The translations under genes were made by a program, and so were the position numbers. This document shows positions 20,032-44,400 of a stretch of 64,000 nucleotides of DNA, piece after piece (the stretch's first letter is position 1; every line of letters begins with the position of its first letter). The notes under the pieces were generated by a model. It saw nothing but the letters and a program-made list of their open reading frames with translations. It did no database searches and was not told the DNA's origin. The stretch spans positions 1 to 64,000 of the forward strand of contig QPGO01000003.1 in the NCBI GenBank assembly GCA_008632985.1. Direction: 5' to 3'. The DNA comes from Psammoneis japonica. Its lineage: Eukaryota.

Positions 20032-20440
20032 TATGTGTTCTCTGGAGTGCGCCGTAGTTAATAGCCTATTCTCTCTACCGGTATTAAAGACACAATGAGT
20101 TTCTTTGATACTATTACACAGGTAGCGGTAATGTTACATGAATACCTGGCAATCATTTCTCTCAGAAGAGAATCTCAAGAGAGCATAATAGCGAAATCGA
20201 CAATCAGCAACAACGCAACAACAAACGACAACGCACCTCGCACCCGCGCAAAAACACAAAAATAAAAAATTCAAATGATTTGGAAAGCACAATAGCTCAA
20301 ACAAGATCAAACTACCGAAGAACTGCGCTCTCGCTTGTTATTTCTGCGCTGCCTTCTGTCCAATGACGCTTTTGTGACCTGTTGTTTGTTCAATGACCTC
20401 TTTGTGACTCCCACTCATCCTATGATGTCCTTCTACGTAC

Positions 20441-21620
20441 GTTTTCGGCAGTCACAAGGCTCATGTCAAGAAACAAGAGGCATTCAACACGACGAGACAT
20501 GAGACACCGCCTGCCACTTCCTGCCGTCACTGTTGTGCGACTGCAAAAAAAACATGATCTGCCGTCTCCAATTTTGCCGAAATGGGGAAGAACCACACCG
20601 ACCAAATTGTCACTCCAAAAAAGGGGCACTGCAATGAAGAGCCCAGCATGAGCAGGACGATGCCGAGAATCCGAGGATGGATGATGAGAAATGTGAGCAG
20701 GAAGCGACTTGCGAAGCAAGCCGCCCAGCCAACGGGTCATCAAGAATGACCATCGTCAACAGCAAACCAACAAGCCCTTTTGGGACAAGTGTTCGTGAAC
20801 ATGATGACAACGAAAAGCAGCAAGAAGAGCAAAAAGAGGTGTCGAAGAAGAAGAAGCTCACCAAGACCATCAGCAAATGACTTCGATGCAGCAGATTCAA
20901 AAGTCGTGGATCGCAAAAGGTCACAAAGGCTTGAAATGAACAGAGAGTCAGCCAAACAAAGAAGAAGGAAACAGCGAAGGTCAGTCGCTGACCTGCAAGA
21001 AAGCAATTTGAAGCTCGAGTCTGAAAGCCGCCTCCTTCGAAGACAAAAACAGGAGCTGGCTGCTCAGTTGGCAAAAGCACAAAAAGCAGAGCAACGAGGT
21101 GCTGCACCCAGTGTGGCTGTGAGTCGACCTGAAGCTGGGGCCCTTGTGGACTCGTTCCCCTCACTGCCCGACTCAACTCAAAAGTCTGTTGCTGCTGCTC
21201 TCCGGACCAGAGATCGCCGGTGGCTTTTGTCGGTGATGCCACATCCAGAGAGTTGGGAGGACTTCTTGCAGCTGGGAACACTGGCTTGCACCATCCAGAA
21301 AGACTGCCTTCAGTGTCATTGACGAGAAATGCACTGTTGAGAGCGCCCCTTCCCGCCTCACCTCGAGCTGCACGTCTTTTTTCTGGGACACGCCCTGACA
21401 CTGCATCTGCCGAAGCAGTCGCATCGCTGCAAGAAGCTGCAAAGATGCGTCTTCTTCTTGAAGACCAAGCGCGACGGCAGCGTCAACGAGAGCTCTCTTC
21501 TTCTTTGGGCAACCCTCTGGGATTGATGGACAGGCATCGAATGAAAACGAGAGAGCTTCTTCGTGGATGCCAGGAGCATTCTCCAACGAGAAAGAAGGTG
21601 AGTGCATTGAGCATGATGCA
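20441..21620. other. TpA-free domain B (CpG retained)
   Basis: No TA seen in about 1180 bp while CG stays frequent. Confidence 0.95.
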
Positions 21621-22400
21621 TTAATGGTTTTGTGATTGTCCTCTGGTGTGCTTCAAATGATGAAATGTGCATGGTGATTTCGTTTCTAACTTTGTCTCTC
21701 ACGTTCGTCATTTGTTTTTGCTCATGCGATCTTCTTTGTTGGAAGATCGTGTGATTGAGGCCATTCTTCAGGAAAGGAAGAAAACGGCTTCTCCTACTTG
21801 TTCGAAGAGGGGCATCATCCGTCGCCTACTTCTTCGAGACGTACGACGAGTGTCTAGAATGATAACCTTGAAGAAATCTGTCAGCCACAAGGTCAAGGAT
21901 CTCTTGATGAGGGAGAATCCCCAGAAGACATCCTCCTGAAGAAGCAGGAGGAAGCTCGTTTGATTGAGGCAATTCTTCGGGAACGGCAAACAATGCCCAC
22001 TTCTTCTCAGCCATCGCCTGCTTCCTTGAGACGTAATACGAGTAGTCGGAATGATGACCCTGAAGAAATCCGACAGAGAGAAGGTGGAGAATCTCTCGAG
22101 GAGGGGGAAGAATCCCCGGAAGAAATTCTCCGTAAAAAACAGCAGGAAGCTCGTTTGATTGAGACAATTCTTTGGGAAAGACAAATAAAGATGGCGATTA
22201 CTCGTTGTTCACAGCAGCCGTCACCTACGTCTTCTAGACCTACGACCAGTGTGCAGGATGATGGTCATGAAGGGATCCTTCGAAAACAGCAGCAGCAGGG
22301 ATCTCTCAAAGAGGGAGAAACTGAGGCAGATAGAGGCTACTGAGGCAACAGCGGGAAGCTCGAAAGATGAAAGCCATTCGTCTTGAATGAGCACCATCGG
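20677..22400 (+). CDS. bZIP transcription factor, possibly pseudogenised; probable intron at about 21598-21745; repeated C-terminal exon
   Basis: KRSQRLEMNRESAKQRRRKQ followed by heptad leucines. GTGAGT donor and CTAAC branch site. The ARLIEAIL.ER unit repeats about every 200 bp. Confidence 0.7.
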
Positions 22401-26020: not shown

Positions 26021-29000
26021 TTACTTTCCTATAGAGCAAGTACAAATGGTGTCTTTCCATTGATCGCTGCACTTGACTGGCCCTCTGCTCGTACAAGTTG
26101 CAACGTCACCTGCGTTGCCTGCTGCCGAGATACAATATCCGCCTTGATTCCTGCAAAAGGCATCGCAGCTGTCACCGTTCAGTTGGACAAAAACGGTACA
26201 CTCCATTTTGCTCTTATCTTCGGAACAAAGGTGTATGCCCCCCTCGTATCCAGTGTTACACAATGATGACGGTTTGAATGACTTCACTGGGCACGAATTG
26301 CAAGTCCTAGGGCAAGCCGCGTAGCCCGTCAGAGTGACCCCCTCAGCATTCTTGCCCGTTACCCGGCAAGAGGATGGCTTAGTCTCCAGGTATTTGCAGT
26401 CCTTTCGAACACGTGTAAAGCTCCATTTTTCGTGACGTAATATTTACCGTGCCAATCTTGGTCGTCGTGACAATCAAGGATTTCAGACGGTCCAATCGCT
26501 GGAGCCGTTGTTGCTATTGAGCTTCGGAGGTTTCCTGGAGACACAGTTGGCGGATCTCCAAGTGAACAGGTGCATATGTTGTCTATCCTTTCAAGATCAC
26601 AGGTTGATGGTCCTCTGCTCGTACAAGTCGCAACATCACCAGCATTTTCTTGTGCGGAAATGCAATATCCGCCTTGTTTCGCGCAAAAGCTATCGCATGT
26701 CTCACCATTCAACATGGCGTAAACGGTGCATTCCATTTTGCTTTCATCTTCGGCGCAAAGGTGTATGCCATTCTTGTGTCCAGCGTTGCACAAATTGACG
26801 GTTTGAACGACGTCACTGGGCACGAATTGCATGCTCTGGGACAAGCCGCGTAGCCCGTCTGAGTGACCCCTTCCGCATTCGGGCCCGAAATCAAGCAAGA
26901 GGATGGATTGGACACCAGGTATTCGCAATTCTTTCGCATGACGTATAGAAGTCCGTTCTTTGTGAAGTAGTAATTTCCCACCCAATCTTTGTTGTTGCTA
27001 CATTCAAGCTCCTTCAGAGCTGTGAGTGCATTTGTTGGAGCAACCGTTTTTGGCTTTTTCGGAGCAGGCGACGGCGAATCAGTTGGTAGCGACGTAGGGA
27101 GGTTCGTTGGTGGTGTAGCGGCAGGCGGTAGCAGCTTAAGCGCCTCCGTTGTTGCAGGAGATGGTGAGTTTGTCGGCCTAAGCGATGGTGCCTTTGTCGG
27201 CGCAAGCGTTGGCGGCGTGCTAGGTTGGTTTGTCGGCACTGGCGTTGGATTAGTTGTCGGTTCAGAGGTAGGTTTCGCTGTGGGAGGATTTGTCGGCACT
27301 TGCGTTGGTTTATTCGTTGGTTTCAAAGTAGGCCCTTCTGTTGGTCTATCGGTTGGGGCGTGCGTAGGTGTCCACGTCGGGAGTTGAGTTGGTGACGTTG
27401 TAGCGGTGTCAACGTAGGAGTCAACGTCGGCGCAGGCGTCAGTGACTTAGATGGTGTCAATGTCGGGTGGTCTGTAGGTGCCCTAGTGAATGGCGCTGAC
27501 GCTTCGGTCGGCATCAGAGAAGGCTGAAATGTTGGAGAGTCAGCAACATCTGATGGTACCTCCGTCTCTTCCGAGAGCCTCGAGAGGCTGCATTTTCCAC
27601 ACGAGGCGGGACAGCCATCGAAGGCTGATACAGAGTTGTTCTCCGCGTCAAGCCCAACAAGTTTGCACCTTGCATCAGGGCTCTTAGCAACAAACTTGCA
27701 CTTTTTCGTTGATCCATTCTTCGCGAAGACCCAATTACTATCGTCACTGCATTCTAATCCATCTTTCTCTGTGTTGTGAGACGTATTTTCACCGGTGAAT
27801 GTAGTAGGTCGTGCTGTTGGCGCTCGAGACGATGGAGCGTATGTCGGGTACGTATTGAGGGGCAACGTTGCTGCCCGTAATGTTGGTGCTGAGGTTTCCA
27901 ACACATCACTTATTGGGCAAGAGCCACACGTGAGTGGACACGCCTCGTATCCAGAAGCATCATTGCCAAACGCATTTTTTCCCATTAGCTTGCATCGTGA
28001 AACAGATTTGGATTTCAAATATCTGCAGGGCTTTCGAACCCCGGATTTGGTAGTGAAGATCCAGAGCTTATCATCAGCACACCCACCCTCCAATGGACGA
28101 TACGGAGTAATCGTTTCCGAGATTTGATTCGTCTCGGAAACAGAAGATAGTGTGGTTGACGAAACCGTTGGCATCAAAGTCACGGGTGCAGCCGGAGCTT
28201 CTGCTTCTACCAGCGAAGAGGGAGACGAACCTTTCGTTTTTATACCAACCCTGACTTTTTCTATGGGTCCGAAATTTCCGCCAGCTTTCTCCAGTTGCCC
28301 GTCAAAGTAAAGCGAGTAGCCCCCATCTCCATACTCGCAACATATTCCATCGTTCTCGCTATCTCGAATGGTAAAGGTGTATTTATCAAGAGGCAAGCAG
28401 AGTCGCGTGATGTAGGTTTTCTCACTACGAAGCCCATTAGCAGATTCAATGACGTCGTTTTTGGAATTCGTTAATTCCCAAGACGTTTCCTCTCCCCATT
28501 CATCCGTCGTCAGATTGAGCATGAAGACCTTTTCATCACAAAGGAACTCGGTCGGTGAAGGTGTTGGAGGTTGGGTATAAAGAGGGTCCTGCTTACAACC
28601 ACCAAGCGCTCCGTCCGAAAGGGGATCTGGAGACTCATCACCGGCTGTGCATCCATCGCGTTTCAAAAGATCGTAGGCTTCCTTTGCTTGAACCATGCCA
28701 AATCCGGACTCGGTGTCACAACCTGATAGTCCTATGTCCTTGGCAGTTCGTATCAGTACGTTTCTGATTTGATGGTTCGTGCATTCTTCAAAATGTAACC
28801 ACAGCAGAGCAGCAATGCCGGCTACATAGGGCGTTGCCATGGAAGTGCCTTTTTAAAAGAGAAATTACGGAGAAAACAATGAGGTCCAGCTTTGAATACT
28901 GTTGAAATCAACTGGTTTATCTGCACTTACCACTCCAGCTATCGTAGCCGTAATGTGTCCCATCGACTTTCGGTACGGTTGATACAATGTCGATTCCAGG

Positions 29001-30071
29001 ACCGGCGATCTCTACTTGGTCGTTGTATTGAGAAAAAGGTGCAATTGCTTCATCCTGTCCAGTTGCAGCTACCGACATAACGGAAGGGAAAGATGCTTGA
29101 AAGGCGTATGATGTGTCGCCTGCATTCCCAGAAGCAGCAATCAATAAAACACCTTCGTCGTATGCGGTTTGGAATGCATTGCGAGCTACGTCACTTGTTT
29201 CGTCTCCTCCAATACTCATACTTATCACCTTGGAACCGGCCGCGATACAACCTTTGAGTGCCTTCAAGACAAGGAATTCAGATCCATCACCCCGCGCGTC
29301 CAAAACTTTTGCAATATGGAAACTGAAGCCTGACATGTTTCGTAGAACACCCGCAACACCAATGTCGTTGTTTCCTAGCGCCCCAATTGTACCAAGACAA
29401 TGTGTGCCGTGGCCATAATCATCCACCCTCCAATCACCAATCCCGGTTTTTGTTCCGGTCACGCCTTCAGTGGGAAGATCCGGATGTCCCAGAGCCATCC
29501 CACTGTCAATAATACAAATCGTCATATTTCCAGTTAGAGAAGCGCTCCTCGGAATGCCCCATATTTGATCCGCTTGCACCATTTTCATGCCATATCCGAC
29601 ATGTTCAAGCACGCGACGGCGTTGCTCTTCCGGTGCGAGTGGTTTCTTGGGACGCTTCTGCGGTTGCAGTGCATGTACTTTGTGATTGAGCTCGACAAAA
29701 TCAATATTAGCATCGTCCAACAAAGTTCTAATTGCTTCTCGGTCGTTCGTCTCGATCGACATAATGGGATGGTGGGGTAGTCTCTTGGATTTGACTCTCG
29801 ACACCTTTCTCGCCAAAGACTTCCCTCTTCCATTTTTGTACTTTACGAACAATGATATTGCCTCGGTCAGTTCCTTGTCATCATCCGCGGCGATTCGAAG
29901 GATCTCATCGCTTCCCGCGGACTCTTTTAGCCACTTCTCTTTGCTCCTTTTTCTAAGCATCGACACGGGAGGATCAGTCTCGCTTGAAGGCAATTGGCAA
30001 TCTGCGACATGCAACATCACGAGTGATAGCACCGCTCCGATCCATGGTGTGCGGAGAAAGAAGAATGCCAT
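26021..30071 (-). CDS. Secreted subtilisin (S8) protease with PT-rich linkers, ShKT-like and Cys-rich C-terminal modules; intron at about 28849-28930
   Basis: Catalytic motifs IIDSG, HGTHCLG and SG|TSMATP (split by the intron). Signal peptide, ACPxTC and DSCDxFCxxQGGxC modules. Confidence 0.9.
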
Positions 30072-30449
30072 GGGCGATTTAAAAAAATAGTTCCGTCAAA
30101 TGAAGAGTAGAGATGAAGAACAGCGGATCTCTGTGTATCGCATCAAGAAAAAGGAGGAGGGCAAATATGAAAAAATTGTGACTATCGAAATCTCAGAAGT
30201 GAGAAAATGTCCCATTTAGAATGACTTGAGCAGTGCCGGCCGAAAGAGCATCAGGCAGGTAGGCAGGGGCAATAATTTGAAACTGTGACTCCTTTTTTCT
30301 ATTATTTGTATCCGTGAGAGTCATCAACCACAGACACTTTGGACATCGAGAGGGTTACTGTAAATCCATTAACTGGTCGCTAACGACGGACCAAATTGCT
30401 CACATCATTGTGTGGCATGCTCTCACAGTTGTTTGATCAAATCTAGAAA

Positions 30450-31700
30450 AGCTTTGCCCATGCAGGCATTGAAATGGGATCTCATTGACTCATGAATCCA
30501 TCTCGCATCCAACGACATCAACTCCTTTTTGTCGCCGTGTTCTCGGCGTCAGTGTTGTGGGCCAAAGGCACAAATCCCTGTGTCGACGAGTGCGGGACAA
30601 AAGAGCGCTTCTGTGGAGAGACATCGTCAGAGTGCACCTTTGCTGTCAACTTGGGTGGTGACAGCTGCAATGACTTTTGTGGGCGACATGGGGGGCGATG
30701 CATCACCACCAAAGCTGCTGGAAGTTCCAGTTGCAACACAAAGGGCGCGAACTCTTGTTCTCATGGCTGCAAAAACAACGCGTGTGTGTGCTCACTTCAA
30801 GACGTCACCAAGGGAGGCAACCAGCCTCCGAAAGAAGAAGAGGCCAAAGTGACTGCTCTAACACCCTGTGTCAAACAGTGTGGTGAAGAAAGTTCACTGT
30901 GCGAAGAAACGTCGCAGCAACGTTCCTTTTGTGTTGTTTTGAAAAAAAGGAGTTGTGGTGACTTTTGCGAACAGCATGGCGGCACTTGCTTGGAAGCGCG
31001 GGTGGCATCGGAAGCTTCCTGCACAGCACGTGAAACCAACTCTGAGATGACTTTTGCGTTTGCACAAGAAACGAAGCGCATGCACCATCTCCCACCCCTG
31101 GTCCTGCACCACTTCCTGCGCCCTCTCCCACGCCGCAGTCACCTCCAGATCCGACTGGGCCACCTGCTCAGCTTCCGACATTTCAGCCAACAGAAAAATC
31201 AATGGATTGTGTCGACGTTCCACAAGGTTGGCATGACCCTGATGGCGAGATCTGCAATTGTGCTTGGCACAGTTTGGATGACAACTGCAAAGAATGAGGA
31301 GATTTCTTTGAAAATTTTGGAGCCACGGCGAGTGCAGCCTGCTGTGGATGCGGTGGAGGGAACCTTCTGTCAGTCGATGGGATTGCACAAACGCCATCCC
31401 CGACGCCACGGCCTTCGCCACTGCCGACAAGCAGCCCTGCCCTCTCTCCCACTGCAGCTGCACCAACAGCCAAGCCGACCGACTGCCCTGCCATGGAATC
31501 AACAGCCAAGCCGACGAAAGGACCAACACGGGTTCCAACGAAGGCGCCCTCATCCAATCCGACTGAATTCCCAACCCTGGAGCCATCAGCCAAGCCGACG
31601 CGAGGTCCAACACGAGTTCCGACATTGCCTCCCACGAGTTCAACTGTTTCACCGACACCAGTGCCAACGCTTGCTTTGACAACGCGTCCAACCTCGACCC
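30450..31700. other. TpA-free domain C covering the 5' half of the M64 gene (CpG retained)
   Basis: One TA (30859) seen in about 1250 bp. Confidence 0.95.
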
Positions 31701-33365
31701 CTACGAAGGGTCCGACTTTGACGCCATCAAATCCTCCTACTGCTCAAACACATGATCCGACGGTGCGTCCGACTTTAGCCCCAACTCTTTTGCCAACCGC
31801 AACGCAAACAACCAATCCTACAGTGAATCCCACACAGTCCCCTTTAGCATCAGCAACATCATCTCCGACCCAGAGATTGACGCCAGTTCCGAGTAGGAGA
31901 CCAACAGCCTTCTCATCAAACAATGACCCTCCCCGCGCTTATACGGCGTATCCCACTCTTGCGCCAACAAATGCACCCACGATCCTGATACCAATGGACG
32001 CCGGTGACGACGATATAAAAGGACAGGGTTCTTCAGAACCAGGATCCTTGAGTGTTGGTAGGGCGTGCTCGAAAAGTAATCAATGCAAGTCATCGACTTG
32101 TCGAAGTGGCGTTTGTATGGCGTCGCCGGCTTGCTATCCAATCAAACACACGTTTGGGAATCCATTCCACAAGAATAGATCAACATTGTGTTTGTTCCAT
32201 CCGCATTCGCTTCATTTGGTCATGATGCTTGGCATGATCACGTCAATAAGACATATGGATTCATGCAAAACTACAACATGTTTGCAGAAGATATCGACGA
32301 GCTCAACGTTTTTAGGGTGGATCCTTTGAATCTCGATGAGTCATTTTGTGCATTGGGATGTCAGGGATTCGACCGACTCTTGTGCTGCGACGTAAAACGT
32401 ACCCATGCGTTGGCCAGCAAGTGCTTCCCTGTCGGACCTAATCTTCAAACTGCTGTCATTCATAGCTCAAGGCAATATGGTGGTGCAGGATACACTAACG
32501 CAAACATTGCTACGGCGACAATGCATCCTGCCGCCCTCTCGTATTAGTACATGAGCTTGGTCACTCGCTCTTTGAGTTGACCGATGAGTACTCGTACGGA
32601 GAAGGAAGTGCCTTTGAGGCAAATTGTGATTCTAGCAGATCTTGCGAGAAATGGTCAGACCTCATGGAGGAAAATTACAGACCGAAAGGTTACGAAAGAG
32701 TGAAATGCATTCCAGGATGTGAGGATGGGTACTACTTTGTTGGAGGCAAGACATTCATGAATGACTTGAGCGCTCCCGTTGGAGCGGTCAATGAACGGTT
32801 TAGTTGCTGTACATACTTGCGTTGACGAAAAAGTTCCCTTCCTACTGTGATGTTTTTGATCCGTCCCCAAACTATCTCTTGAACTATTGCAAGAAGGATT
32901 ACCAAAACTATGGTGCCTCAAGCTACGAAAGTGAAGAGGTCCTTGCCATACCGGGGTACACAAACAATGACAAGGCCGACGCTAAATACATGAGAGTGGT
33001 AGATCCAGCAATGGTGACAATTACATCCACAACAAAGCGCTCGGGGTCACGGTATTCCGAACAAAAACATCTCAATTAGAAACTGGAATCTTTCCTACGT
33101 CTCAGGTCAAAGGCGACTTTGTTAATCCAAGAGCCGCAATGAAACAAGGAGTAGATTCCTTGTTGAAAGTCTTGGTCTTTTATACAAGAGGAAAAGACAC
33201 GCTGTTTTTTCAAGAAAAATAACCATTGAAATACCCCCGCCTCCTCCCAACAGCACAACATTACAAGGAGTCCCTCACAGTGTTTCCGATGAACCCAATG
33301 TTTTCGAGTTGGTCTTGGACACCAAAGGACGGGCTGTAAAGAAGATTCGTGTCAAGGCAATCTGA
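30492..33365 (+). CDS. Secreted Cys-rich / PT-repeat / peptidase M64-like metalloprotease; 5' half eroded, possibly a pseudogene
   Basis: YGGAG and HELGHS...LTDEY motifs. Paralog of 41442-45005. In-frame TGA near 31295. Confidence 0.75.
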
Positions 33366-34280
33366 ACGACTTTATTTGACCACTGGAGTATGCTAATATT
33401 ACACGAGACCACCGCCTTTTGTCGAAAAGCAAAACGATGGAGGCTTCTTTTCCGGTTCAAGAAACGAGTTCTGTTCAAAATACAAAACACCCGCAAAATG
33501 TTGAGATTTCACTTTTGCCTCCTCACAAATTCTAGCAATGGACACAGAAAGACAACAAACTAAAATGGAATCATGCAAGGTCCATAAGCAAGACAAGGTT
33601 GATTGTATCATCAAGACTCTACTAGCCGCGGTTCAAACGCACTTTTCAACAAATTATTTTATAAGCTCGGACAGTAGTATAATGTAGCCACTGTGAGAAT
33701 TGATTGAGCCATATATTCACTCGCCACACTTGGGTATAACTTTACAATAATAGTGTTCAAAGTACCGTAGCAACATGCTTGGGCTCACAGTCAACGGATT
33801 CCAAGTAAGTGCTTTCGCAGTGCGGCCTTTTTTGCGTCGCAAGAGATCAAGATCCACCATATGACACCTGTGCATGTTGTCCTTCACAATCAAAACGGCC
33901 TCTTGCTCGTCAAGAATATAAACAAACAGCCCCATTTACTCGCTCTTTGTGTTGCTGAGGCCAAACGTTGTTGTCGTCGAGTGTGTCACACAAGGGAAAA
34001 GTGGGAAAAAAGTGTGTAATCAAGTGTGTATTAATAAAACGCTTTACGCGCCAAAATGTATCTTTTGCATGCCTCTAGAGAGGGAGAGAAAAAGTACAAA
34101 GCCACAGTAGTCGATCTAGAATGTTTTGTAACTATCAAGCCTAGCACACCTACCAACTCGTAGAAACAAAGTACTTCACGATTCTACTAAAATCCATCCT
34201 ATTCATGTCCTACCTTGAGCATACAAACCAACCAAAAACAACACAAGTCACACTCCAATCAACTCTCTTCCAACAATCTT

Positions 34281-35151
34281 TTACTTGGTATCAATTCCAA
34301 GCAACAAATTCGTCCCACCACCGTTTCCACTCGACCACTCGCTCCTCCTCCACTGCTACTTCCACTGGGCAAGTAGACAATATTCCTCGAATTGGCCAAT
34401 TTGCCTGCAATTTCCTTGGCGGCATCAATACGACGCACTTCCACAATGGCATTGCCCGTCTTTTCCATGGCACTTGTAATGATTTGTGCCGCTTCGGCTT
34501 CCCCTTCGGCACGCGTCACAACGGCTTGACGTTCTTGTTCGGCACGTTTGACAACCCACTGTTGTCGTTCGGCTTCTTGTGATGCCACCTGTTTGGCTTC
34601 AATGGCACGCATAAATTCGACACCAAATGTCAAATGCGTAATGGCAACATCATCAAACTGTAAATGAAAATTCTTGGCTCTCTTGATCATTTCACCCTTG
34701 ATGCGTTCCGAGACCTCGTGACGTTTGCTCAACAACTCTTCGGCATTGTACTGGGCCACGACACTTTCAAAACTTCATTGCCGATACTCGGCAAGACACG
34801 TTCATCAAAGTCAACACCCAACTCTCTATAAAGACGTGGCAACTCTTCCACGACGGGTCTCCATAATACCCTCAATTTGATGTTTACCATTTGCAAATCC
34901 TTGGTACCCGTCACAGAGGGAATTTCACGGGGTTTCGTACGGACATCCATGACAATGGGACGTTGAATGACGGGCACCATAAAATGGGTGCCTTCGCCAA
35001 TCACATGAGGACGGATACCACCCTGGAGTGTATCAAACATGACGGCACGTTCCCCGCCATCGACATTGTAGATACAAGAATTGACGGTAAAAGCACCGAC
35101 GGCCAGTGCACCCGACATGGTTCCGAGAGAACGTAAAATCTTGTCCGACAT
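34281..35151 (-). CDS. PHB1: Prohibitin 1 (SPFH family)
   Basis: YNVDGGERAVMFD, GEGTHF, TGTKDLQMVNI, DERVLPSIGNEVLK and AIEAKQVA. Confidence 0.95.
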
Positions 35152-35391
35152 GGTGCTAGTAGTAGTATGTTTGTTTGTTTCGAGTATAGTAGAACGATTA
35201 GAAGACGAACAACAGTGTGTACAACAGCACCAACAAACAAAGAGCCTCTCTTGGTGCTGACGCTGTGAACTGAGATTTTCGATCTTTTTCCACCTGCTTC
35301 CGACAACGTACATTTCTACGTGCTTCTGGTTGTCGTTCCAAACGTGTGGTGGATTGATTCTTCTCTGTTTGACTCGAACGGGCGACCGACC

Positions 35392-35480
35392 GACAGTCAG
35401 ACAGACAGACAGTCAGACAGACAGTCAGACAGACAGTCAGACAGACAGTCAGTCAGACAGTCAGACAGACAGTCAGACAC
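35392..35480 (+). repeat. 12-bp microsatellite (CAGTCAGACAGA)n
   Basis: About 7 units, directly visible. Confidence 0.95.
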
Positions 35481-36646
35481 GCACACCGACCTGCCATGCA
35501 TTGCATGTGCGTGTTCTTCACATCATGACAACACACAAAAAAGGGGTGAGCCGCAGCAGAGGCCCTCTGATGCTGTGCAGGTTGTTTGTCTCCAAACAAG
35601 AAGCAAAAGTGCCCAAACACCTCCTCCTCCTCCTTCTCTTCTTTTGTTGCCAGAGACTCTGCTTTTTGCGTTGCTCTGTGGTGGTGTGGCCAACTCTCCC
35701 GCTTTGTTTTGCAAAAGAGCATGCACAGCCACACTTGTTTTGCAACAAGATTTTTTTTTGCTGGACACATGTTGTTTTTGGCAGGTGACTTGGTTTTTTT
35801 TCAGACACTGCCCCAAACTTTGAGTGCTGCTGGCGCTGCCACACACTGGTGCTTGGCTCTCTCTCTCTGCACAGCAGGTTCTCTTGCCTTCTTCTTGCAC
35901 ACCACCACACACACACACAGGGCAGCCCAAAACATGATCAAATTGACAATGCAGCAAGAAGCAACAACGTCAACAAGAAAATGTTCAGCACACATCACAC
36001 GCAGCAGCAGGTGGCAGCAAAGCGGCGCTTTTCTGAGATGGTGTGCGTGAATTTCACAATTGAGCATGTGCACATGGGGTGATGTTTGCACAACAAATGT
36101 TGTGTCCAAGCAGTGCACAAATGTGAAATGACAACATTGGCACTGTCATGTGTGTGATGGGATTTTGGTTTGAGGTGGGGAGCAATGCACCAGACTTGGT
36201 CAATCATGGGGGGGGGGGCTGTGTGTCAAAAAGAGCTGGTGTGTTGCAAGTTTGTGAGCCAAATTGTCAAAATGCTGTGTCACGAACAAGCCCCAAACAC
36301 ACACTGTGTTTGTGTGCCATCATGTGAGATGTCCCATGTCTGACTGGATGTTTGTGTCCCCAATCATGTTGGCCAGCTGCACAACTGGCATGCAAGAAGA
36401 CTGCGCTCAAAACTGAGTTGCAGCATGATGATGCAAAAATGTGCACACAGCTGAAATCCCATCAACACCCATTTTGTTGGAAGGAGCCACACCCCACACT
36501 GGACTTGGCAAAGAAAGTGATGGAAGATCAAGAAAGTTAAAGGAGACACACACTGGAGAGCGCCAGACATGATGGGATGAAAGGGTGGCACAGCACTTGC
36601 ACACAAGCCAAGAGGTGGCACAGTGCTTGCACAATCCACAATGCAG

Positions 36647-36661
36647 GGCAGCAGCAGCAGC

Positions 36662-36694
<33 letters not shown>
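36647..36694 (+). repeat. (CAG)n microsatellite with one CGG interruption
   Basis: Directly visible. Confidence 0.95.
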
Positions 36695-36695
<1 letters not shown>

Positions 36696-37386
36696 CCAAC
36701 CACAATGCCAAACACACAGAGCTTGTGAGGCAACAAACTGAGAACCGCAACAAGCAGTGGTCTTGGCAGCAACTTGCTTCTTTTGGAGAACAGGCCAACA
36801 TGGCCAATCAGAAACTTGTTGAGGAACAGAGTGCAGAGTTCTTGCTCATCAGCTGGCTTATGTGAAACTTGTGGCTCTAGATTTCCCCTAAGTCATTTTA
36901 TTTTCAGAAGATGTCCATAACGGCTTAAGGGCTTATCAGTGTGGACCCTCATGACTGGTTGAGTGACTGCAACATTGATTATTTAGTAACGCTTCAATTT
37001 TTATAATATTTCGTCGGACTCTCGACATCAGCTGTCCAAAGAAATTCTGTCTTCCAGTGAGGGCCTACCATAGTACACATAAGACGTGCGCACAGAAAAC
37101 AACATACGGGCTGATTGACAGACTGCTTCAGTAAGATTTCTACATATTATTCTTTGGACAGCCGCTGTCCAGAGTCTGCCCCCCCCCAGCGAGCATGGGT
37201 TTTTGTGCGGTCCGTGAGTCCGTGATTTTTTTGGGAATTGTCATGCAAAAAAATAGATACTGTAATGTCTAATGTCATCTTTTCGCGGTTAGTTCAAGGC
37301 TCAGTGCAAGGAATAAACCAATAAGCAAGGACACTCCCTCTGTGATACAACAACTCACTGCATGACACAATACTCAGAGTGCAGCC

Positions 37387-40300
37387 ATGACGTTCTTCTT
37401 CTTTCCGACCATCGCGACATTGCTATGGTTCGTGATGTTGCATGCCGCAGATTGCCAATTGCCTTCGAACGATACAGATCCTCTCATGTCGATGCTGAGA
37501 AAAAAGAGCAGAGAGAAGTGGACAAAAGAGTCTGCAGGAAGCGCTGAGATCCTTCGAATCGCCGTTGACGATGACAAGGAACTGGTTGAGGCAATATCAC
37601 TATTCGTAACGTACAAAAATGGAAGAGGAAAGTCTTTGGCGAGAAAGGTGTCGAGTGTCGAATCCAAGAGAATACCCCAACATCCTATCATGACGATTGA
37701 GACGAGAGACCAAGAAGCAATCCGAGCGTTGTTGGACGACCCTGATATTGATTTTGTCGAGGTCAACACAAAGTACATGCACTGCAACTGCAGAAGCGTC
37801 CCAAGAAACCACTCACTCCAGCAGAGCGACATCGTCGCGTTAATGAACATGTTGGGTACGGCATAGGAATGATTCAAGTGGACCAAATATGGGACATTCC
37901 AAGGGACGCTTCGCAAACTGGAAATATGACGATTTGTATTATTGACAGTGGCATGGCTCTGGGACATCCGGATCTTCCCACTGAAGGCGTGACGGGGACA
38001 AACACAGGGATTGGGGATTGGAGGGTCGATGATTATGGCCACGGCACACACTGTCTTGGAACAATTGGGGCGCTAGGAAACAATGGCATTGGCGTTACGG
38101 GTATTCTACGAAACACATCAGGCTTCAATTTCCACATTGCCAAAGTTTTGGACGCGCGGGGTGATGGATCTGAATTCCTTGTCTTGAAGGCACTCGCAGG
38201 CTGTATCGCTGCCGGCTCCAAAGTCATAAGTATGAGTATTGGAGGAGACGAAACAAGCGATATAAGTCGCACAGCATTCCAAATGGCATACGATGAAGGC
38301 GTTTTACTTGTTGCCGCTTCAGGGAATGCAGGTGACACTTCACACGCCTATCCAGCATCGTTTCCATCAGTCATGTCGGTAGCTGCAACTGGACAGGATG
38401 AAGCAATTGCACCTTTTTCTCAATACAACGACCAAGTAGAGATCGCCGGTCCTGGAATCGACATTGTATCAACCGTACCGAAAGTCGATGGGACACGTTA
38501 TGGCTACGGTAGCTGGAGTGGTAAGTGCAGATAAACCAGTCGTTTTCAACAGAATGCATGACTGGATCTCATTGACTTCTCCGTGATTTCTCTTTTTAAA
38601 AAGGCACTTCAATGGCAACGCCCTATGTAGCCGGCATTGCTGCTCTGCTGTGGTCGCATTTTGAAGAATGCACGAACCATCAAATCAGAAACGTGCTGAT
38701 ACGAACTGCCAAGGACATAGGACCATCAGGCTGTGATACCGATTCGGGATTCGGGATGATCCAAGCAAAGGAAGCCTACGATCTTTTGAAACGCGATGGA
38801 TGCACAGCCGGTGATGAGTCTCCAGACCCCCTTTCGGATGGAGCGCTTGGTGGTTGTAAGCAGGACCCTCTTTACACCCAACCTCCAACACCTTCGCTGA
38901 CTGAGTTCCTTTGTGATAAAAGGTCTTCATGCTCAATCTGACGACGGACAAATGGGGAGAGGAAACTTCTTGGGATCTAACGAATTCCAAAAACGACGTC
39001 ATTGAATCTGCTAATGGGCTTCGTAGTGAGAAAACCTACATCACGCAACTCTGCTTGCCTCTCGATGTATACACCTTTACCATTCGAGATCGTGAGAACG
39101 ATGGAATATGTTGCGAGTATGGAGATGGGGGCTACTCGCTTTATTTTGACGGGCAACTGGAGAAAGTTGGCGGAATTTTCGGGCCCATAGAAAAAGTCAG
39201 GGTTGGTATAAAAACAAAAGGTTCGTCACCCCCTTCGCTGGTAGAATCAGAAGCTCCGTCTGCACCGTTGACTTTGATGCCAACGGATTCGTCAACCGCA
39301 CTATCTTCTGTTTCCGACACGAATCAAATCTCAGAAACACGTAAGCCGTATCTTCCACCGGAGGGTGGTTGCGCAGACGATAAGTTCTGGCTATTCACTA
39401 CCAAGACCGGCTTGAAAAAGCCCTGCAGATATTTGAAATCCAAGTCTTTGTTGCGATGCAAGCTAGTAGGGAAAAATGCCTTTGGCAATGATGCATCTGG
39501 CTACGAGGCGTGTCCACTCACATGTGGCTCTTGCCCAAGTGAGGAGATAGAAACCTCGGCTCCAACTTTGACAGCAACATCACCCCGCACCACTTACCCG
39601 ACCCACGCTCCATCATCACGAGCGCCAATGCCACGACCCACAGAATCCGATTCCAACTCGTCCATCACAACTAGAACCGGGGCTCATAACGCAGAAAACG
39701 TTGGGTCAACATGCATCGACGATAGAAAGTGGGTCTTCGTCAGGAAGGGTTCAACAAAAAAGTGTAAGTTTGTTTCTAAGAATCCTGACGCTCGGTGCAA
39801 GCTTGTTGGGCAAGATGAAGAGAACAACTCGGTATCGGCCTATGACGGTTGCCCCTTCTCTTGTGGAAATTGCAGCCTCCCGAGTTCCTCAGAACAAACT
39901 ACGGCACCATCAGATTTAACTGCATCTCTAACAATTCAGCCTACTCCAGGACCTGGTACTACCGGTATAAGACCAACGAACTTCCCAACATCGACACCAA
40001 CTAAGTCAAAAACGCTTGCACCAACTTCGTTCAATTCGTCGAAGCTCTGCAACAATGGATATGAGGACGGCATACTCCTATGTGAAGAAGATAGGAGCAA
40101 AATGGAATGTACAGCTTTTGCCAAGTTAAACGGTGACAGCTGCGATGACTTCTGTATGAAGCAAGGCGGAATTTGCATATCGGCAAAATCCGATGCAGAT
40201 GATTCGTGTGTCAGCAGAGGACCAACGAAATGCAGCGACAAATTAAAAGACAACATATGTTCATGCTCGCTTCCTTCAATACCAGCAAAGTCGCCAGCGA

Positions 40301-41025
40301 ATTCACCGGCAGAGTTGTCTCCAGCAGCAACAGAAGATTCTCTCTGCAAAGATGACAAGGACTGGTACTCCGACAAATACAAGATGGACTGCAAATCCTT
40401 GGAGACGGAGTCATTCTATTGCTGGATAATGGGCGAAAATGCGGAAAGTTCAGGTCAGACAGGCTACGAGGCTTGTCGGGTCGCTTGCAACACGTGTCCA
40501 GCAACGTCGCTCAATCCTTCGACGCTCTGTAATAATGGATATGAGGACGGCATACTGCTGTGTGAAGAAGATAAAAGCAAAATGGAATGCACAGTCTTTG
40601 CCAAATTAAACGGTGACAGCTGCGATGACTTCTGTATGAAGCAAGGCGGAATTTGCATCTCGGCAAAATCCGATGTAGATGATTCGTGTGTGAGCAGAGA
40701 GCCGACAAAGTGCAGCGCTGAATTGAAAGACAACATATGTACCTGCTTTGTTGGAAATTTTGAAGAGGCTCAGTTACCAGCAACTGCCAGTTCGTCAACC
40801 TGTACAAGCTATAAAGGCAGAGACTTCCTTCACTGTGAGCAGACCAAAACCGAATGTTCAGCCTACGTTAGGTTGGATGGCGACAGCTGCGACGATTATT
40901 GCAAGAGTCAGGGCGGTAGTTGTCTTAACGCATCGTCTAACGGCGGCAAGGTAACATGCGAAACGAAACGTCGAAAGTCCTGCAGTAAAGGCGTTCGAGA
41001 TATGATATGCACGTGCACCTTCTGA
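37387..41025 (+). CDS. Second secreted subtilisin (S8) protease, paralog of 26021-30071; intron at about 38522-38603
   Basis: IIDSG, HGTHCLG and SG|TSMATP, with the same intron position and similar Cys-rich modules. Confidence 0.9.
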
Positions 41026-41441
41026 GTTTATCAAACCAACCAATGCTGCGTGCGCAGAGAAGAGTGCTACTTTTGTTGTGTTGAATGGTAGCAGCTCTGT
41101 CCGCAGACGGCTCCCGATCGGTCTGAAGCCACAGAATCGAAACATCAACAAGTCGAGTGACAAATACGGTGCAGATCGGAGACCACTTATAGAGTGAATG
41201 GAGAGCCATACTCAATACCGGTAGAGGGCAATCGTCTGAAGGGAGTTACGATTGGCACTACCGTATTGTGCGCAGTTCAGAATGAACCCTAACCCAAACG
41301 GACTACCCTGTCTTTGTCAATAGTCTCAATTTAAACCCTCTCTACTACAAAAACTGAAGACTAGAAGATCAGCCTAAGATGCACAGAAATCATGAATTAC
41401 TACCCTTCCTTTTGCACGATCACAATTTGTGTAACAATGTG

Positions 41442-44400
41442 TTACCGTGCATCAATTAGTTTTGCTCGAATGCTCTTGATGTGCCTCCCCTTTGTGTCCA
41501 AGACCAATTCGAGAACTTCGGATTCCGTTGAAACTCTTAGCGGCATCTCATCTTGTACGCCTGAATGATTTGGATCTGGCAACGGGATCTCAATTGTTTT
41601 GTTTCTCGAAAAGAATAATATCTCCTTTCCAGTTCTATATATGACCAAGACTTTCAACAAGGAATCTACCCCTTGTTTGCTGCGGCTTTTGGGCTTGCAA
41701 AGTCGCCCTTGACCTGAGATTTCGAGAATATTCCACTTTCTAATTCAGACGTTTTTGTTCGGAATACAATGGTACCCGTCCGCTTCGTTTTGGAAGTAAG
41801 TGTCGCCATGACAGGATCTGCCACTCTCATGTATTTAGCACTAGCCTTGTCATTGCTTTCAAATCCCGGAATAGCAAGAAGCTCCTCGCTTTCATAGTTC
41901 GAGGCGCCATAGCTTTGGTAGTCCTTCTTGCAGTACTCACGGAGATAGCCGGGGGATGTATCGAAAATCTGACAGTAGGAGGGAACTTTTTCGTCAAAGC
42001 TAAATATGTGCAGCAACTAAACCTTTCATTTACCGCTCCAACGGGATGGCTCAAGTCGTCCATGAAGGTTTTGCCCGAGACAAAGTAGTTACCATTCTCG
42101 CATCCAGGAATGCATTGCACTCTGTCATAGCCCTGTGGTCGGTTCTTTCGTCCCATTAGGTCTGACCATTTCTCGCACGACCTGGTGTCACAATTTGCTT
42201 CAAGTCCGTTTCCATCTCCGTAAGAGTACTCGTCGGTCAATTCAAAGAGCGAGTGACCAAGCTCATGTACCAAAACTAAAGAGGAAGCAGGATGCATTGT
42301 CGCAGTAGCAATGTTTGCACTTGTATAGCCAGCGCCTCCATACTGCCTTGAGCTATGAATGACAACAGTTTGAAGATTAGGTCCGACAGGGAAGCACTTG
42401 CTGCCTAAGTCGTGGGCGCGTTTTATGTCACAGCACAAGAGTCGATCAAATCCCTGGCAGCCCAAATTACAAAACGACTCGTCGAGATTCAATGGGTCTA
42501 CCATAAACACATTGAGCTCATCGATCTCTTCTGCAAACATATTATAGTTTTGCATGAATCGATACGTTCTGTAGACCTCATCTTCCCAAGCATCGTGACC
42601 AACCGAATCAAAGGCAGACGCAACGAACACGATGTTGATATTGTGTTTGTAAAATGGAGTCCCAAACGTGTGTTTGATTGGATAGCAATCCGGCGATGCC
42701 ATGCAAACGCCACTCCGACACGTAGAGGACTTGCACTGCCTATTGTTGGAGCACGGCCTACCAGCGCCCAAGGATCCTGGTTCTGCATCTACTTGTATTT
42801 TGTGGTCGGTGTCACCGGAGCCTGGTGGTAGCTTGACCACGGGTTTATTGGACGGTGCGATAGTGAGACCAGTCGCTGGGACCGGTGAGGGTCCTGGCGT
42901 TGCAATCGTTGTTTGGTATGAAGCCGGCGATTGAGTTGGTGACGGTGTAGGAGGCTCTGAAGGGAAGGACGTCGGCCGCTGAGTCGGAGATGGTGTCGCT
43001 GATGCTGAAGGGGATGTCGTGGGGTACACAGTAGGATTCCTTGTCAACGGGGTGGTTGGTAAACTAGTTGGGGTTAACGTTGGTCGCACCGTGTGAGGAC
43101 TTGACGGAGTCGAAGTCGGATCCCTTGTAGGCATTGAGGATGTCGGTGAAATTGATGGGGTCATCGTTGGGGGAGGCGTTGGTGGCATCGTCAGAGGAAA
43201 AGTTGGTGCGGCTGTCGAAGTTTCTGTCGGTGCCATTGTCGGGCGAGAAGTCGGTTGTAGTGTCGGTGGAGCAGACGGACTACTTGTTGGGGTTAACGTC
43301 GGTCGCACCGTCGGAGGAGTTGATGGTTCCGAAGTCGGATCCTTTGTAGGCGGTGAGGATGATGGCGAATTTGATGGCGTCATTGTTGGGGGAGGCGTTG
43401 GTGGCATCGTCAGAGGAAAAGTTGGTGCAGCTGTTGGAGTTTCTGTCGGAACCATTGTCGGGCGAGAAGTCGGCCGTATTGTCGGTGGAGCAGACGGACT
43501 ACTTGTTGGAAACAAAGTGGGAAAAGCCGTCGGTACTCTTGTCGGCGGCGCAGATGGGCTATCCGTTGGCAACAAAGTGGGATTAGCGGTCGGTTTTCTT
43601 GTCGGTGTTGCGGTGGGTTTGTGGGTTGGGTCTGCGCTAGGCAACGGAGTAGGTCGCGATGTAGGCCTTCTCGTAGGGGATCTTGTGGGTGTAGCAGTCG
43701 GAGGCGCCAATATCGCAGCACCAAAATCAATCGGTTTCCACAAAAACAAGAAAGGCTCACCACGATTTCTTGTTTCACCTGTATTACTCGTCATTCTATT
43801 GACGTTGTCCCAAGAATTCCCGTTCCAAAGACAAAAATTCGCGTCTTGTCCGTTGTCCTGGGCGGCAAGCATGATGTTATTCCCCCTCGGCGACGAGAAT
43901 ATTCTCAATGAGTTTGGCGCATTTCCCAAGTCGGGCCCTTGCCTCTCATTAGACCAGCCATTGCTTAATGACCACATTCTGTATCGTAATTTATTATCAA
44001 ATTGTGAATAGACTGCCATTGCCCTTCCCGTGGCGTCCTCAAATGCCACATCAATGCCTTGAAACTTTTGGGCAAGGGAACGAGATGCAGCATTCGTGAT
44101 TGATCCCCACATTGCGTTTCCATCCCAAACAGCAAGCCAAAATGAAAAGTACTTGAAGGTTGACACTCCCAAAACAAGGCGATTGCTAGTCGGATCCGAA
44201 GATATGGAGAGAAAGGCAACATTATACGACATTGAGACACCGCTGGGTGGTGCTATTGTTCCTTCCCGACTCCATTCAATGCCATTAAAAATGCGATAAT
44301 GTAGCGTGGGAGACTTTTTTGCATATAATAGCATTGCTCGACCACTCTGCTGTTCATAGGCGACCTTCACCTTGATTTTGCCCCAATTTTCATTGTTTTT

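What the first reader, a model, noticed from the sequence alone, without database searches (positions are those of the whole stretch)
30450..31700. Half-eroded gene: the 5' part of the M64 peptidase gene is Tyr-free while the 3' part is normal
Seen: one TA in about 1250 bp with CpG kept, then normal TA from 31700 within the same gene. The module at about 31202-31360 reads CVDVPQGWHDPDGEICNCAWHSLDDNCKE*GDFFENFGATASAACCGCGGG. From my recollection of this common diatom Cys-rich module, the aromatic positions are usually Tyr (YNC.WY, YG). Inference: TAY>CAY and TAY>TGY changes are the protein-level signature, and domain edges ignore gene boundaries.
Basis: partly seen in the sequence, partly recalled or inferred. 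Interest (0 to 1): 0.7.

Follow-up and report, generated by a model that had tools for sequence, protein, structure and literature searches.

The report
TA-erased half of a peptidase gene
The front half of a now broken algal peptidase gene has had almost every TA step rewritten to TG or CA, turning its conserved tyrosines into cysteine or histidine while the back half is untouched, a clean record of a local DNA-mutating process so far reported in one unrelated alga.

Summary
Observation confirmed. 30450-31700 holds 1 TA where about 40 are expected. Against two intact paralogs, 0 of 10 shared TAs survive in the tract (7 TG, 2 CA) against 31 of 39 downstream; CpGs and other sites show no excess change. 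Tyr is the normal residue at the module columns (e.g. 401 of 419 outside homologous domains), so the proposed refutation fails. The gene is broken by a 16-bp deletion near 31044 and TAC>TGA at 31295; the frameshifts in the M64 domain are assembly errors. One correction: tract edges do not generally ignore genes; 6 of 94 edges cross a long ORF against 58% expected, so this case is an exception. The tract (at most 30362-31701) is a young, minimal-size domain of a TpA>TpG/CpA hypermutation covering about 40% of 706 kb sampled. It works like the TpA hypermutation of Bigelowiella natans (bioRxiv 2026) but here hits a host gene. Enzyme, trigger and the reason for the mid-gene edge are not shown. This scan has reported the same process many times on other DNA of this genome.

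The parts
30362..31701 (.). TpA-erased tract, widest bounds (0 susceptible TA, 4 resistant YTAR; CpG kept); core 30445-31490 is firm
30492..33365 (+). broken gene for a secreted mosaic protein: signal-like N-terminus, two Cys-rich modules, a third 50-aa Cys-rich module, Pro/Thr stalk, M64 metallopeptidase domain
30570..31075 (+). two Cys-rich modules of a family with 64 matches in this genome; Tyr-free here, 6 Tyr in the matching 193 aa of the closest paralog (C7:135 kb)
31043..31045 (+). junction of a 16-bp deletion (frameshift) relative to the C7 paralog, near the centre of the tract (centre 30926-31073 by the four edge choices)
31205..31357 (+). third Cys-rich module with Tyr>Cys (31253), Tyr>His (31268) and Tyr>stop (31295)
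31295..31297 (+). premature TGA where both close paralogs have TAC
30859..30860 (.). only TA left in the core, in CTAA, one of the most resistant contexts (survival 0.31 against 0.004-0.12 for susceptible ones)
31702..33365 (+). TA-normal 3' half; open frame to the natural stop in the second assembly copy, HELGH motif at 32550; five one-base gaps of the window here are assembly errors
31994..31996 (+). in-frame ATG absent from three paralogs, 292 bp beyond the tract edge; possible restart codon (untested)
28917..30071 (-). first exon of the divergent subtilisin-like neighbour; its ATG lies 290 bp from the widest left edge

Best explanation
The tract is the footprint of a regional DNA hypermutation that changes A to G at TpA, mostly where a pyrimidine follows (TAY), on both strands, and that in this genome saturates silent DNA between live genes. 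Here a young domain of the smallest usual size (about 1.3 kb) formed over the 5' half of one redundant member of a large peptidase family. SHOWN: direction (TA>TG/CA), both strands, saturation, confinement, no excess CpG or other change, protein-level effect, broken gene. INFERRED: the change is adenine deamination in DNA (A to hypoxanthine, copied as G) by a TadA/ADAT-like enzyme recruited to silenced chromatin (about 55%); CpG decay follows later and more slowly, so this tract is recent (75%); the left edge is held by the promoter of the divergent subtilisin gene (60%); the right edge is the limit of a local spread from a seed inside the gene, possibly the lesion that left the 16-bp deletion at the tract centre (30%). 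Whether the gene died before or because of the tract is not resolved: TA>TG/CA cannot itself make a stop or a deletion.
For: 0 of 10 paralog-shared TAs kept against 31 of 39 (Fisher p 5e-6) and 1 of 26 against 23 of 46 with a distant paralog (p 5e-5). Changes on both strands within 20 bp (31253 TG; 31268 and 31270 CA), all 13 readable events fit TAY on one strand. Non-TA change on this lineage 11 of 413 sites, CpG kept 22 of 24 against 35 of 42 downstream: by hand calculation at least a 25-fold excess at TA. 10 of 13 lineage-specific codon changes in the tract are non-synonymous against 18 of 47 in the M64 domain. The same signature covers 47% of C4:1-506 kb and 39% of C3:300-500 kb, with YTAR making 51-56% of survivors against 17% in normal DNA. 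12 of 46 tracts measure 1.0-1.75 kb and none less than 1.03 kb; most of these have also lost CpG. A wholly eroded M64 paralog exists (L011: 2 TA, 13 CG in 1140 bp), so the 3' half is not immune by sequence. Mettrop et al. (bioRxiv 10.64898/2026.01.13.699255, parts 1-3 of 5 read) measured the same TpA>TpG/CpA spectrum as de novo DNA mutation. Five deaminase-fold matches (PF14437) exist in the genome.
Against: No enzyme is tied to the process; the PF14437 matches may all be ordinary tRNA or nucleotide deaminases and were not characterised beyond one ORF listing. No methylation, chromatin or RNA data. No transposon or repeat lies in the tract, and no close copy of its 5' part exists apart from the segmental copy that shares all lesions. 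The seed-at-centre idea rests on one deletion (a chance position this central has about 1 in 10 odds, by hand) and the CpG-keeping rim of 53 large-tract edges is only 100-300 bp wide, not the 650 bp that two joined transposon halos would need. Only 10 TA sites are polarised by two close paralogs.
Confidence: 0.8

Rival explanations
1. The 3' half is spared because it is still a live, shorter gene: a new start at 31994 gives an M64-only protein without signal peptide, and the tract simply fills the silent gap between two active promoters, as most tracts do.
For: Edges avoid live ORFs (6 of 94 against 58%). The ATG at 31994 is missing from three paralogs and lies 292 bp from the edge, like the 290 bp on the left. 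Both disabling lesions lie in the first 28% of the gene; the 690-codon 3' frame is open with HELGH intact.
Against: A young tract explains an intact 3' half without selection. Edge-to-ATG distances range widely (1 bp to over 1 kb), so the match of 290 and 292 is weak. A Cys-rich peptidase without signal peptide is unlikely to fold (inference). The synonymous excess in the M64 domain is older than the lesions.
Confidence: 0.2
2. The right edge is a recombination junction: a longer eroded copy had its 3' half replaced by gene conversion or crossing-over from an unmutated copy.
For: The family is a mosaic: 32270-32570 differs from paralog L003 at 3 of 300 sites while neighbouring stretches differ by 12-37%, and the tract part of the stalk is closer to L003 than the next part.
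Against: The switch in ancestry on this lineage maps to 31760-31976, beyond two intact susceptible TAs at 31702 and 31738. No donor for 31702-32170 is in the assembly. The tract has the modal size of isolated tracts.
Confidence: 0.15
3. RIP-like, homology-triggered mutation set off by pairing of duplicated sequence.
For: The locus is duplicated in the assembly (C4:195.8 kb) and has close paralogs.
Against: The duplicate spans 29067-36854 and shares every lesion, yet only 1.3 kb of the gene is hit; the stretch that is 99% identical to L003 keeps its TAs, and L003 and L004 are untouched. Two other small tracts are single-copy.
Confidence: 0.1
4. An error-prone polymerase (Pol eta-like, A>G at WA) or a failure to repair a modified adenine, rather than a deaminase, writes the same signature in silent DNA.
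For: The sequence record cannot tell the chemistry; a few A>G changes outside TA occur in the tract (31332, 31380, 31658, 31683).
Against: AA is not a target (31 of 33 kept in the tract; A_A mismatch rate 0.006 against T_C 0.112 in repeat pairs), unlike the WA motif recalled for Pol eta.
Confidence: 0.2
5. Ordinary composition: His and Cys are the normal residues and TA is low because of amino-acid content, or the stretch is an assembly artefact.
For: Cys-rich and Pro/Thr-rich coding DNA is somewhat TA-poor (paralog stalks 4-7 TA per 250 bp).
Against: Tyr columns in 26 paralogs and 423 outside domains; synonymous TAs are lost too (31432); short-read contigs match the tract exactly.
Confidence: 0.01

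Closest known systems
TpA-specific hypermutation of integrated NCLDV and virophage DNA in Bigelowiella natans (Mettrop et al., bioRxiv 10.64898/2026.01.13.699255; abstract, results and discussion read, methods and supplements not)
   Same: TpA>TpG/CpA, regional, DNA-level, both strands; TpA-depleted clusters that also include genes of likely host origin
   Different: There the measured targets are viral insertions of 25-186 kb that keep many TAs; here the loss is saturated, covers about 40% of the DNA sampled, shows a TAY preference, and in this tract hits half of a host gene with no foreign or repeated DNA inside. Different supergroup branch (a diatom-like genome by homolog names).
Repeat-induced point mutation (RIP) of ascomycetes (from established knowledge)
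   Same: Regional, saturating, dinucleotide-specific transition mutation that kills genes and leaks into neighbours
   Different: Opposite chemistry (CpA>TpA creates TA); needs paired duplicates, which do not predict this tract
Methyl-CpG decay in DNMT5-methylated diatom transposons (PMC9998398, abstract only)
   Same: Silenced DNA as the likely target; older tracts here have lost CpG
   Different: Does not remove TA; this tract has no excess CpG loss
Peptidase family M64 (Pfam PF09471)
   Same: Domain above cut-off, HELGH as in 103 of 112 homologs
   Different: This copy is broken upstream; the mosaic Cys-rich N-terminus matches no Pfam family

Membership tests
Bigelowiella-type TpA hypermutation | A>G / T>C transitions concentrated on TpA | tested here: met
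   9 of 10 shared TAs became TG or CA; other sites 11 of 413 changed
Bigelowiella-type TpA hypermutation | fixed in DNA, on both strands | tested here: met
   TG and CA products within 20 bp; DNA contigs match
Bigelowiella-type TpA hypermutation | confined to regions | tested here: met
   sharp tract; 46 internal tracts in 706 kb
Bigelowiella-type TpA hypermutation | target of viral or foreign origin | tested here: not met
   host gene family with algal homologs, no repeat in the tract
Bigelowiella-type TpA hypermutation | about 1000-fold raised de novo rate, active in some lines only | not testable with these tools
   needs mutation accumulation; only a lower bound of about 25-fold from paralogs
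Bigelowiella-type TpA hypermutation | ADAT2-like deaminase as proposed (unproven) agent | tested here: inconclusive
   5 PF14437 matches in the genome, none tied to the process
RIP | C>T at CpA, gain of TpA | tested here: not met
   CA kept 39 of 39 in the tract, TA lost
RIP | extent set by duplicated sequence | tested here: not met
   duplicate is 7.8 kb and the most identical stretch is spared
RIP | premeiotic timing, RID dependence | not testable with these tools
   no data
Methyl-CpG decay | excess CpG>TpG/CpA | tested here: not met
   22 of 24 CpG kept against 35 of 42 downstream
Peptidase M64 | Pfam PF09471 above gathering score with HEXXH zinc motif | tested here: met
   44.9 bits against 26; HELGH
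Peptidase M64 | intact full-length product | tested here: not met
   16-bp deletion and premature stop

The most novel reading that the evidence does not exclude
A natural adenine base editor acts on this genome in quanta of about 1.3 kb, can be seeded inside a host gene without any repeat (at a DNA break or transposon excision, here the central 16-bp deletion) and without prior CpG decay, and so prunes or remodels members of expanded gene families; here it may have left a live, shortened M64 gene starting at 31994.
Probability: 0.15. Interest if true: 0.85.

Novelty: new variant of a known kind. Interest (0 to 1): 0.5.

Why it matters
If the process is enzymatic A-to-G editing of chromosomal DNA, it is a genome defence that mirrors RIP with the opposite chemistry and shapes a large share of this genome; four searches of the held papers found it only for Bigelowiella. 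This locus is a useful test case: the ancestral state is known from close paralogs, TA loss is complete while CpG is untouched, no repeat is present, and the edge falls inside one gene, so chromatin, methylation and RNA can be read on both sides of it. The locus itself adds one well-polarised example to a pattern that this scan has already reported many times.

Tried and rejected
Tracts anchored at gene 5' ends (like antibody hypermutation): all 6 ORF-crossing edges had the 5' side in the tract, but on inspection two are this gene and its copy, one is an LTR-element ORF, one the WDR5 junction and two are probably stop-free upstream extensions; a subtilisin at C4:190.3-193.1 kb has its 3' part eroded instead. 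Rejected. Two joined 650-bp halos of an excised transposon: the CpG-keeping rim is only 100-300 bp; of four other small tracts searched, two hold repeat pieces at one side and two are single-copy. Not supported, not excluded. Edge equals recombination junction: change point lies further right. Frameshifts in the M64 domain as pseudogene lesions: assembly errors. The break near 31044 as an intron: the nearest GT..AG spans 17 bases, too short (read). No RNA holder listed for this DNA; this says nothing on expression. No TA-keeping version of 30144-31187 was laid from the contigs, but contigs drop rare variants. A Pfam scan of six-frame readings of seven other small tracts failed on an input error and was not repeated, so their content is unknown. 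No Pfam family for the two kinds of Cys-rich module. Look-up of earlier findings by the tract sequence gave nothing.

Full report
OBSERVATION. The stretch 30450-31700 has one TA (30859) in 1251 bp; 39.6 are expected from its composition at the background rate (Poisson P 2.5e-16). TA o/e is 0.02 here, 0.60 in 31702-33100 and 0.62 in background; CG o/e is 0.74 against 0.98. The quoted module and its stop are present. The 402 codons in the tract hold no Tyr; the 555 after it hold 23. Contigs of a short-read run match 29878-31233 and 31340-31570 without a difference, so the loss is real. That run may be the source sample and is a check on base calls, not independent biology.

ANATOMY. The gene starts at ATG 30492 with a hydrophobic N-terminus, then two Cys-rich modules of a family with 64 matches in the genome, a third 50-aa Cys-rich module, a Pro/Thr stalk and an M64 peptidase domain (44.9 bits, cut-off 26) ending at 33365. 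Homologs of the domain are named from diatoms and other algae; HELGH is shared with 103 of 112. A second copy of 29067-36854 lies at C4:194.6-202.4 kb; between 29068 and 34800 it differs only by eight one-base gaps of the window, six of which lie in the stretch laid and are filled in the short-read contigs. So the apparent frameshifts of the M64 domain are assembly errors and the 3' frame is open for 690 codons. Two lesions are shared by both copies: a 16-bp deletion at about 31044 relative to the C7 paralog (inside the matching contig) and TGA at 31295 where both close paralogs have TAC (not covered by a listed contig).

DIRECTION OF CHANGE. With paralogs L003 and L004 as ancestral state, 0 of 10 shared TAs survive in 31170-31701 (7 TG, 2 CA, 1 TT at the edge of homology) against 31 of 39 in 31702-33240 (p 5e-6). 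With the distant C7 paralog, 1 of 26 survive in the 5' modules against 23 of 46 in the M64 part (p 5e-5). Both strands are hit within 20 bp. Other sites changed at 11 of 413 on this lineage, no more than in L003 (14 of 418); CpG is kept at 22 of 24. By hand, that puts the excess at TA at 25-fold or more. The 13 events readable from one or both close paralogs all fit TAY>TGY on one strand, though no TAR site was there to test. Genome-wide, YTAR contexts survive at 0.19-0.47 of their normal density and the others at 0.004-0.12; the lone survivor is CTAA.

PROTEIN SIGNATURE. In 26 other copies of the third module in this genome the three columns are Tyr in 23, 25 and 23; the single copy with His at all three lies in TA-free DNA. 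In 423 domains from the best 150 of 998 outside proteins the columns are Tyr 241 of 340 (Phe 85, Cys 1), Tyr 401 of 419 (His 1) and Tyr 226 of 418 (Phe 92, His 25, Cys 0); none has both Cys and His as here. The His of WHD is native. Besides Tyr, stalk Thr codons became Ala; 10 of 13 lineage-specific codon changes in the tract are non-synonymous against 18 of 47 in the M64 domain.

CONTEXT. A two-state model on susceptible TAs% of C4:1-506 kb and 39% of C3:300-500 kb depleted (706 kb of 91 Mb, not a random sample) and sets the widest bounds of this tract at 30362-31701. Of 46 internal tracts (neighbours under 1 kb apart merged; this tract counted twice through its copy), 12 measure 1.03-1.73 kb and none less; outside them only four gaps of 403-524 bp exist. 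Most small tracts have also lost CpG, which fits TA going first and CpG later. Edges avoid intact genes: 6 of 94 cross a long ORF where 58% of normal DNA lies in such ORFs. The test cannot see broken remnants; by homology a subtilisin at C4:190.3-193.1 kb has its 3' part eroded. A fully eroded M64 paralog (L011, 2 TA in 1140 bp) shows the end state.

MECHANISM. Shown: a saturating, two-strand, TpA-directed A>G change confined to about 1.3 kb of a broken gene. Inferred: adenine deamination in silent chromatin by a TadA/ADAT-like enzyme (the match of TAY to the tRNA substrate of TadA is recalled, and is also in earlier notes). Five deaminase-fold matches exist in the genome but none is linked. 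Why the edge falls mid-gene is open. The left edge lies 290 bp from the ATG of the divergent subtilisin, within the usual range. For the right edge I favour the limit of a local spread; the 16-bp deletion sits near the centre (30926-31073 by edge choice), which would fit a seeding break or excision, but that is one event, and the rim test went against a simple transposon-halo model. A live short gene from ATG 31994 and a recombination junction are the rivals; the ancestry switch maps to 31760-31976, beyond two kept TAs. Homology triggering is disfavoured: the stretch 99% identical to L003 is spared.

KNOWN SYSTEMS. Mettrop et al. (bioRxiv 10.64898/2026.01.13.699255; parts 1-3 of 5 read; supplements closed) report de novo TpA>TpG/CpA mutation at about 1000 times the base rate in two viral insertions of Bigelowiella natans and propose an ADAT2-like enzyme. 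This tract works like that; the foreign-target feature is not met, and rate and enzyme are untested, so I call it a variant rather than a member. It is not RIP and not methyl-CpG decay. Searches for a diatom report returned only that preprint; the library lacks most subscription journals. PMC9998398 was seen as abstract only.

VERDICT. Real, well polarised, and a clear protein-level record of an unusual mutational process, but one more instance of a pattern this scan has reported repeatedly in this genome. Interest 0.5.

Noticed in passing
window 29067-36854 and G000:C4:194.6-202.4 kb (L002, L021, L022): Near-identical second copy of the segment; left break inside the subtilisin gene, right break at 36854 where the copy runs on into a 20-kb TA-free block; about a dozen substitutions cluster at 34954-35331. 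Recent duplication or two haplotypes.
   Followed up: partly
window 32176, 32533, 32818, 33042, 33207, 33812: One-base deletions that are assembly errors; apparent frameshifts elsewhere in this assembly need the same caution.
   Followed up: yes
window 32270-32570 and L003: 3 differences in 300 bp amid 12-37% divergence: recent gene conversion around the catalytic motif.
   Followed up: partly
window 20439-21794: A second CpG-keeping TA-free tract of nearly the same length (1356 bp) over a bZIP-like ORF.
   Followed up: partly
G000:C4:190302-193067 (L021, L051): Subtilisin-like gene with an eroded 3' part (Tyr-free Cys-rich modules, stops) and a TA-normal 5' part: the mirror image of this finding.
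   Followed up: partly
706-kb sample of C4 and C3: Tract lengths have a floor near 1.0 kb, a mode at 1.3-1.7 kb and a gap between 2.8 and 4.2 kb.
   Followed up: partly
G000:C4:129831-131237 and 409048-410077: Paralogous intergenic tracts share the same left edge though only one holds the repeat insertions.
   Followed up: no
window 27323-43092: Inverted arrangement of paralog pairs: subtilisin(-), M64(+), prohibitin-like(-), tract, subtilisin(+), M64(-); the prohibitin label is recalled from the translation.
   Followed up: no
L004:31-2415, L003: Close M64 paralogs carry a different, Pfam-less N-terminal region of about 480 aa in place of the two Cys-rich modules: module shuffling in this family.
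   Followed up: no
L141-L145: Five matches to PF14437 (deaminase fold); L141 encodes a TadA-like ORF of 243 aa.
   Followed up: no
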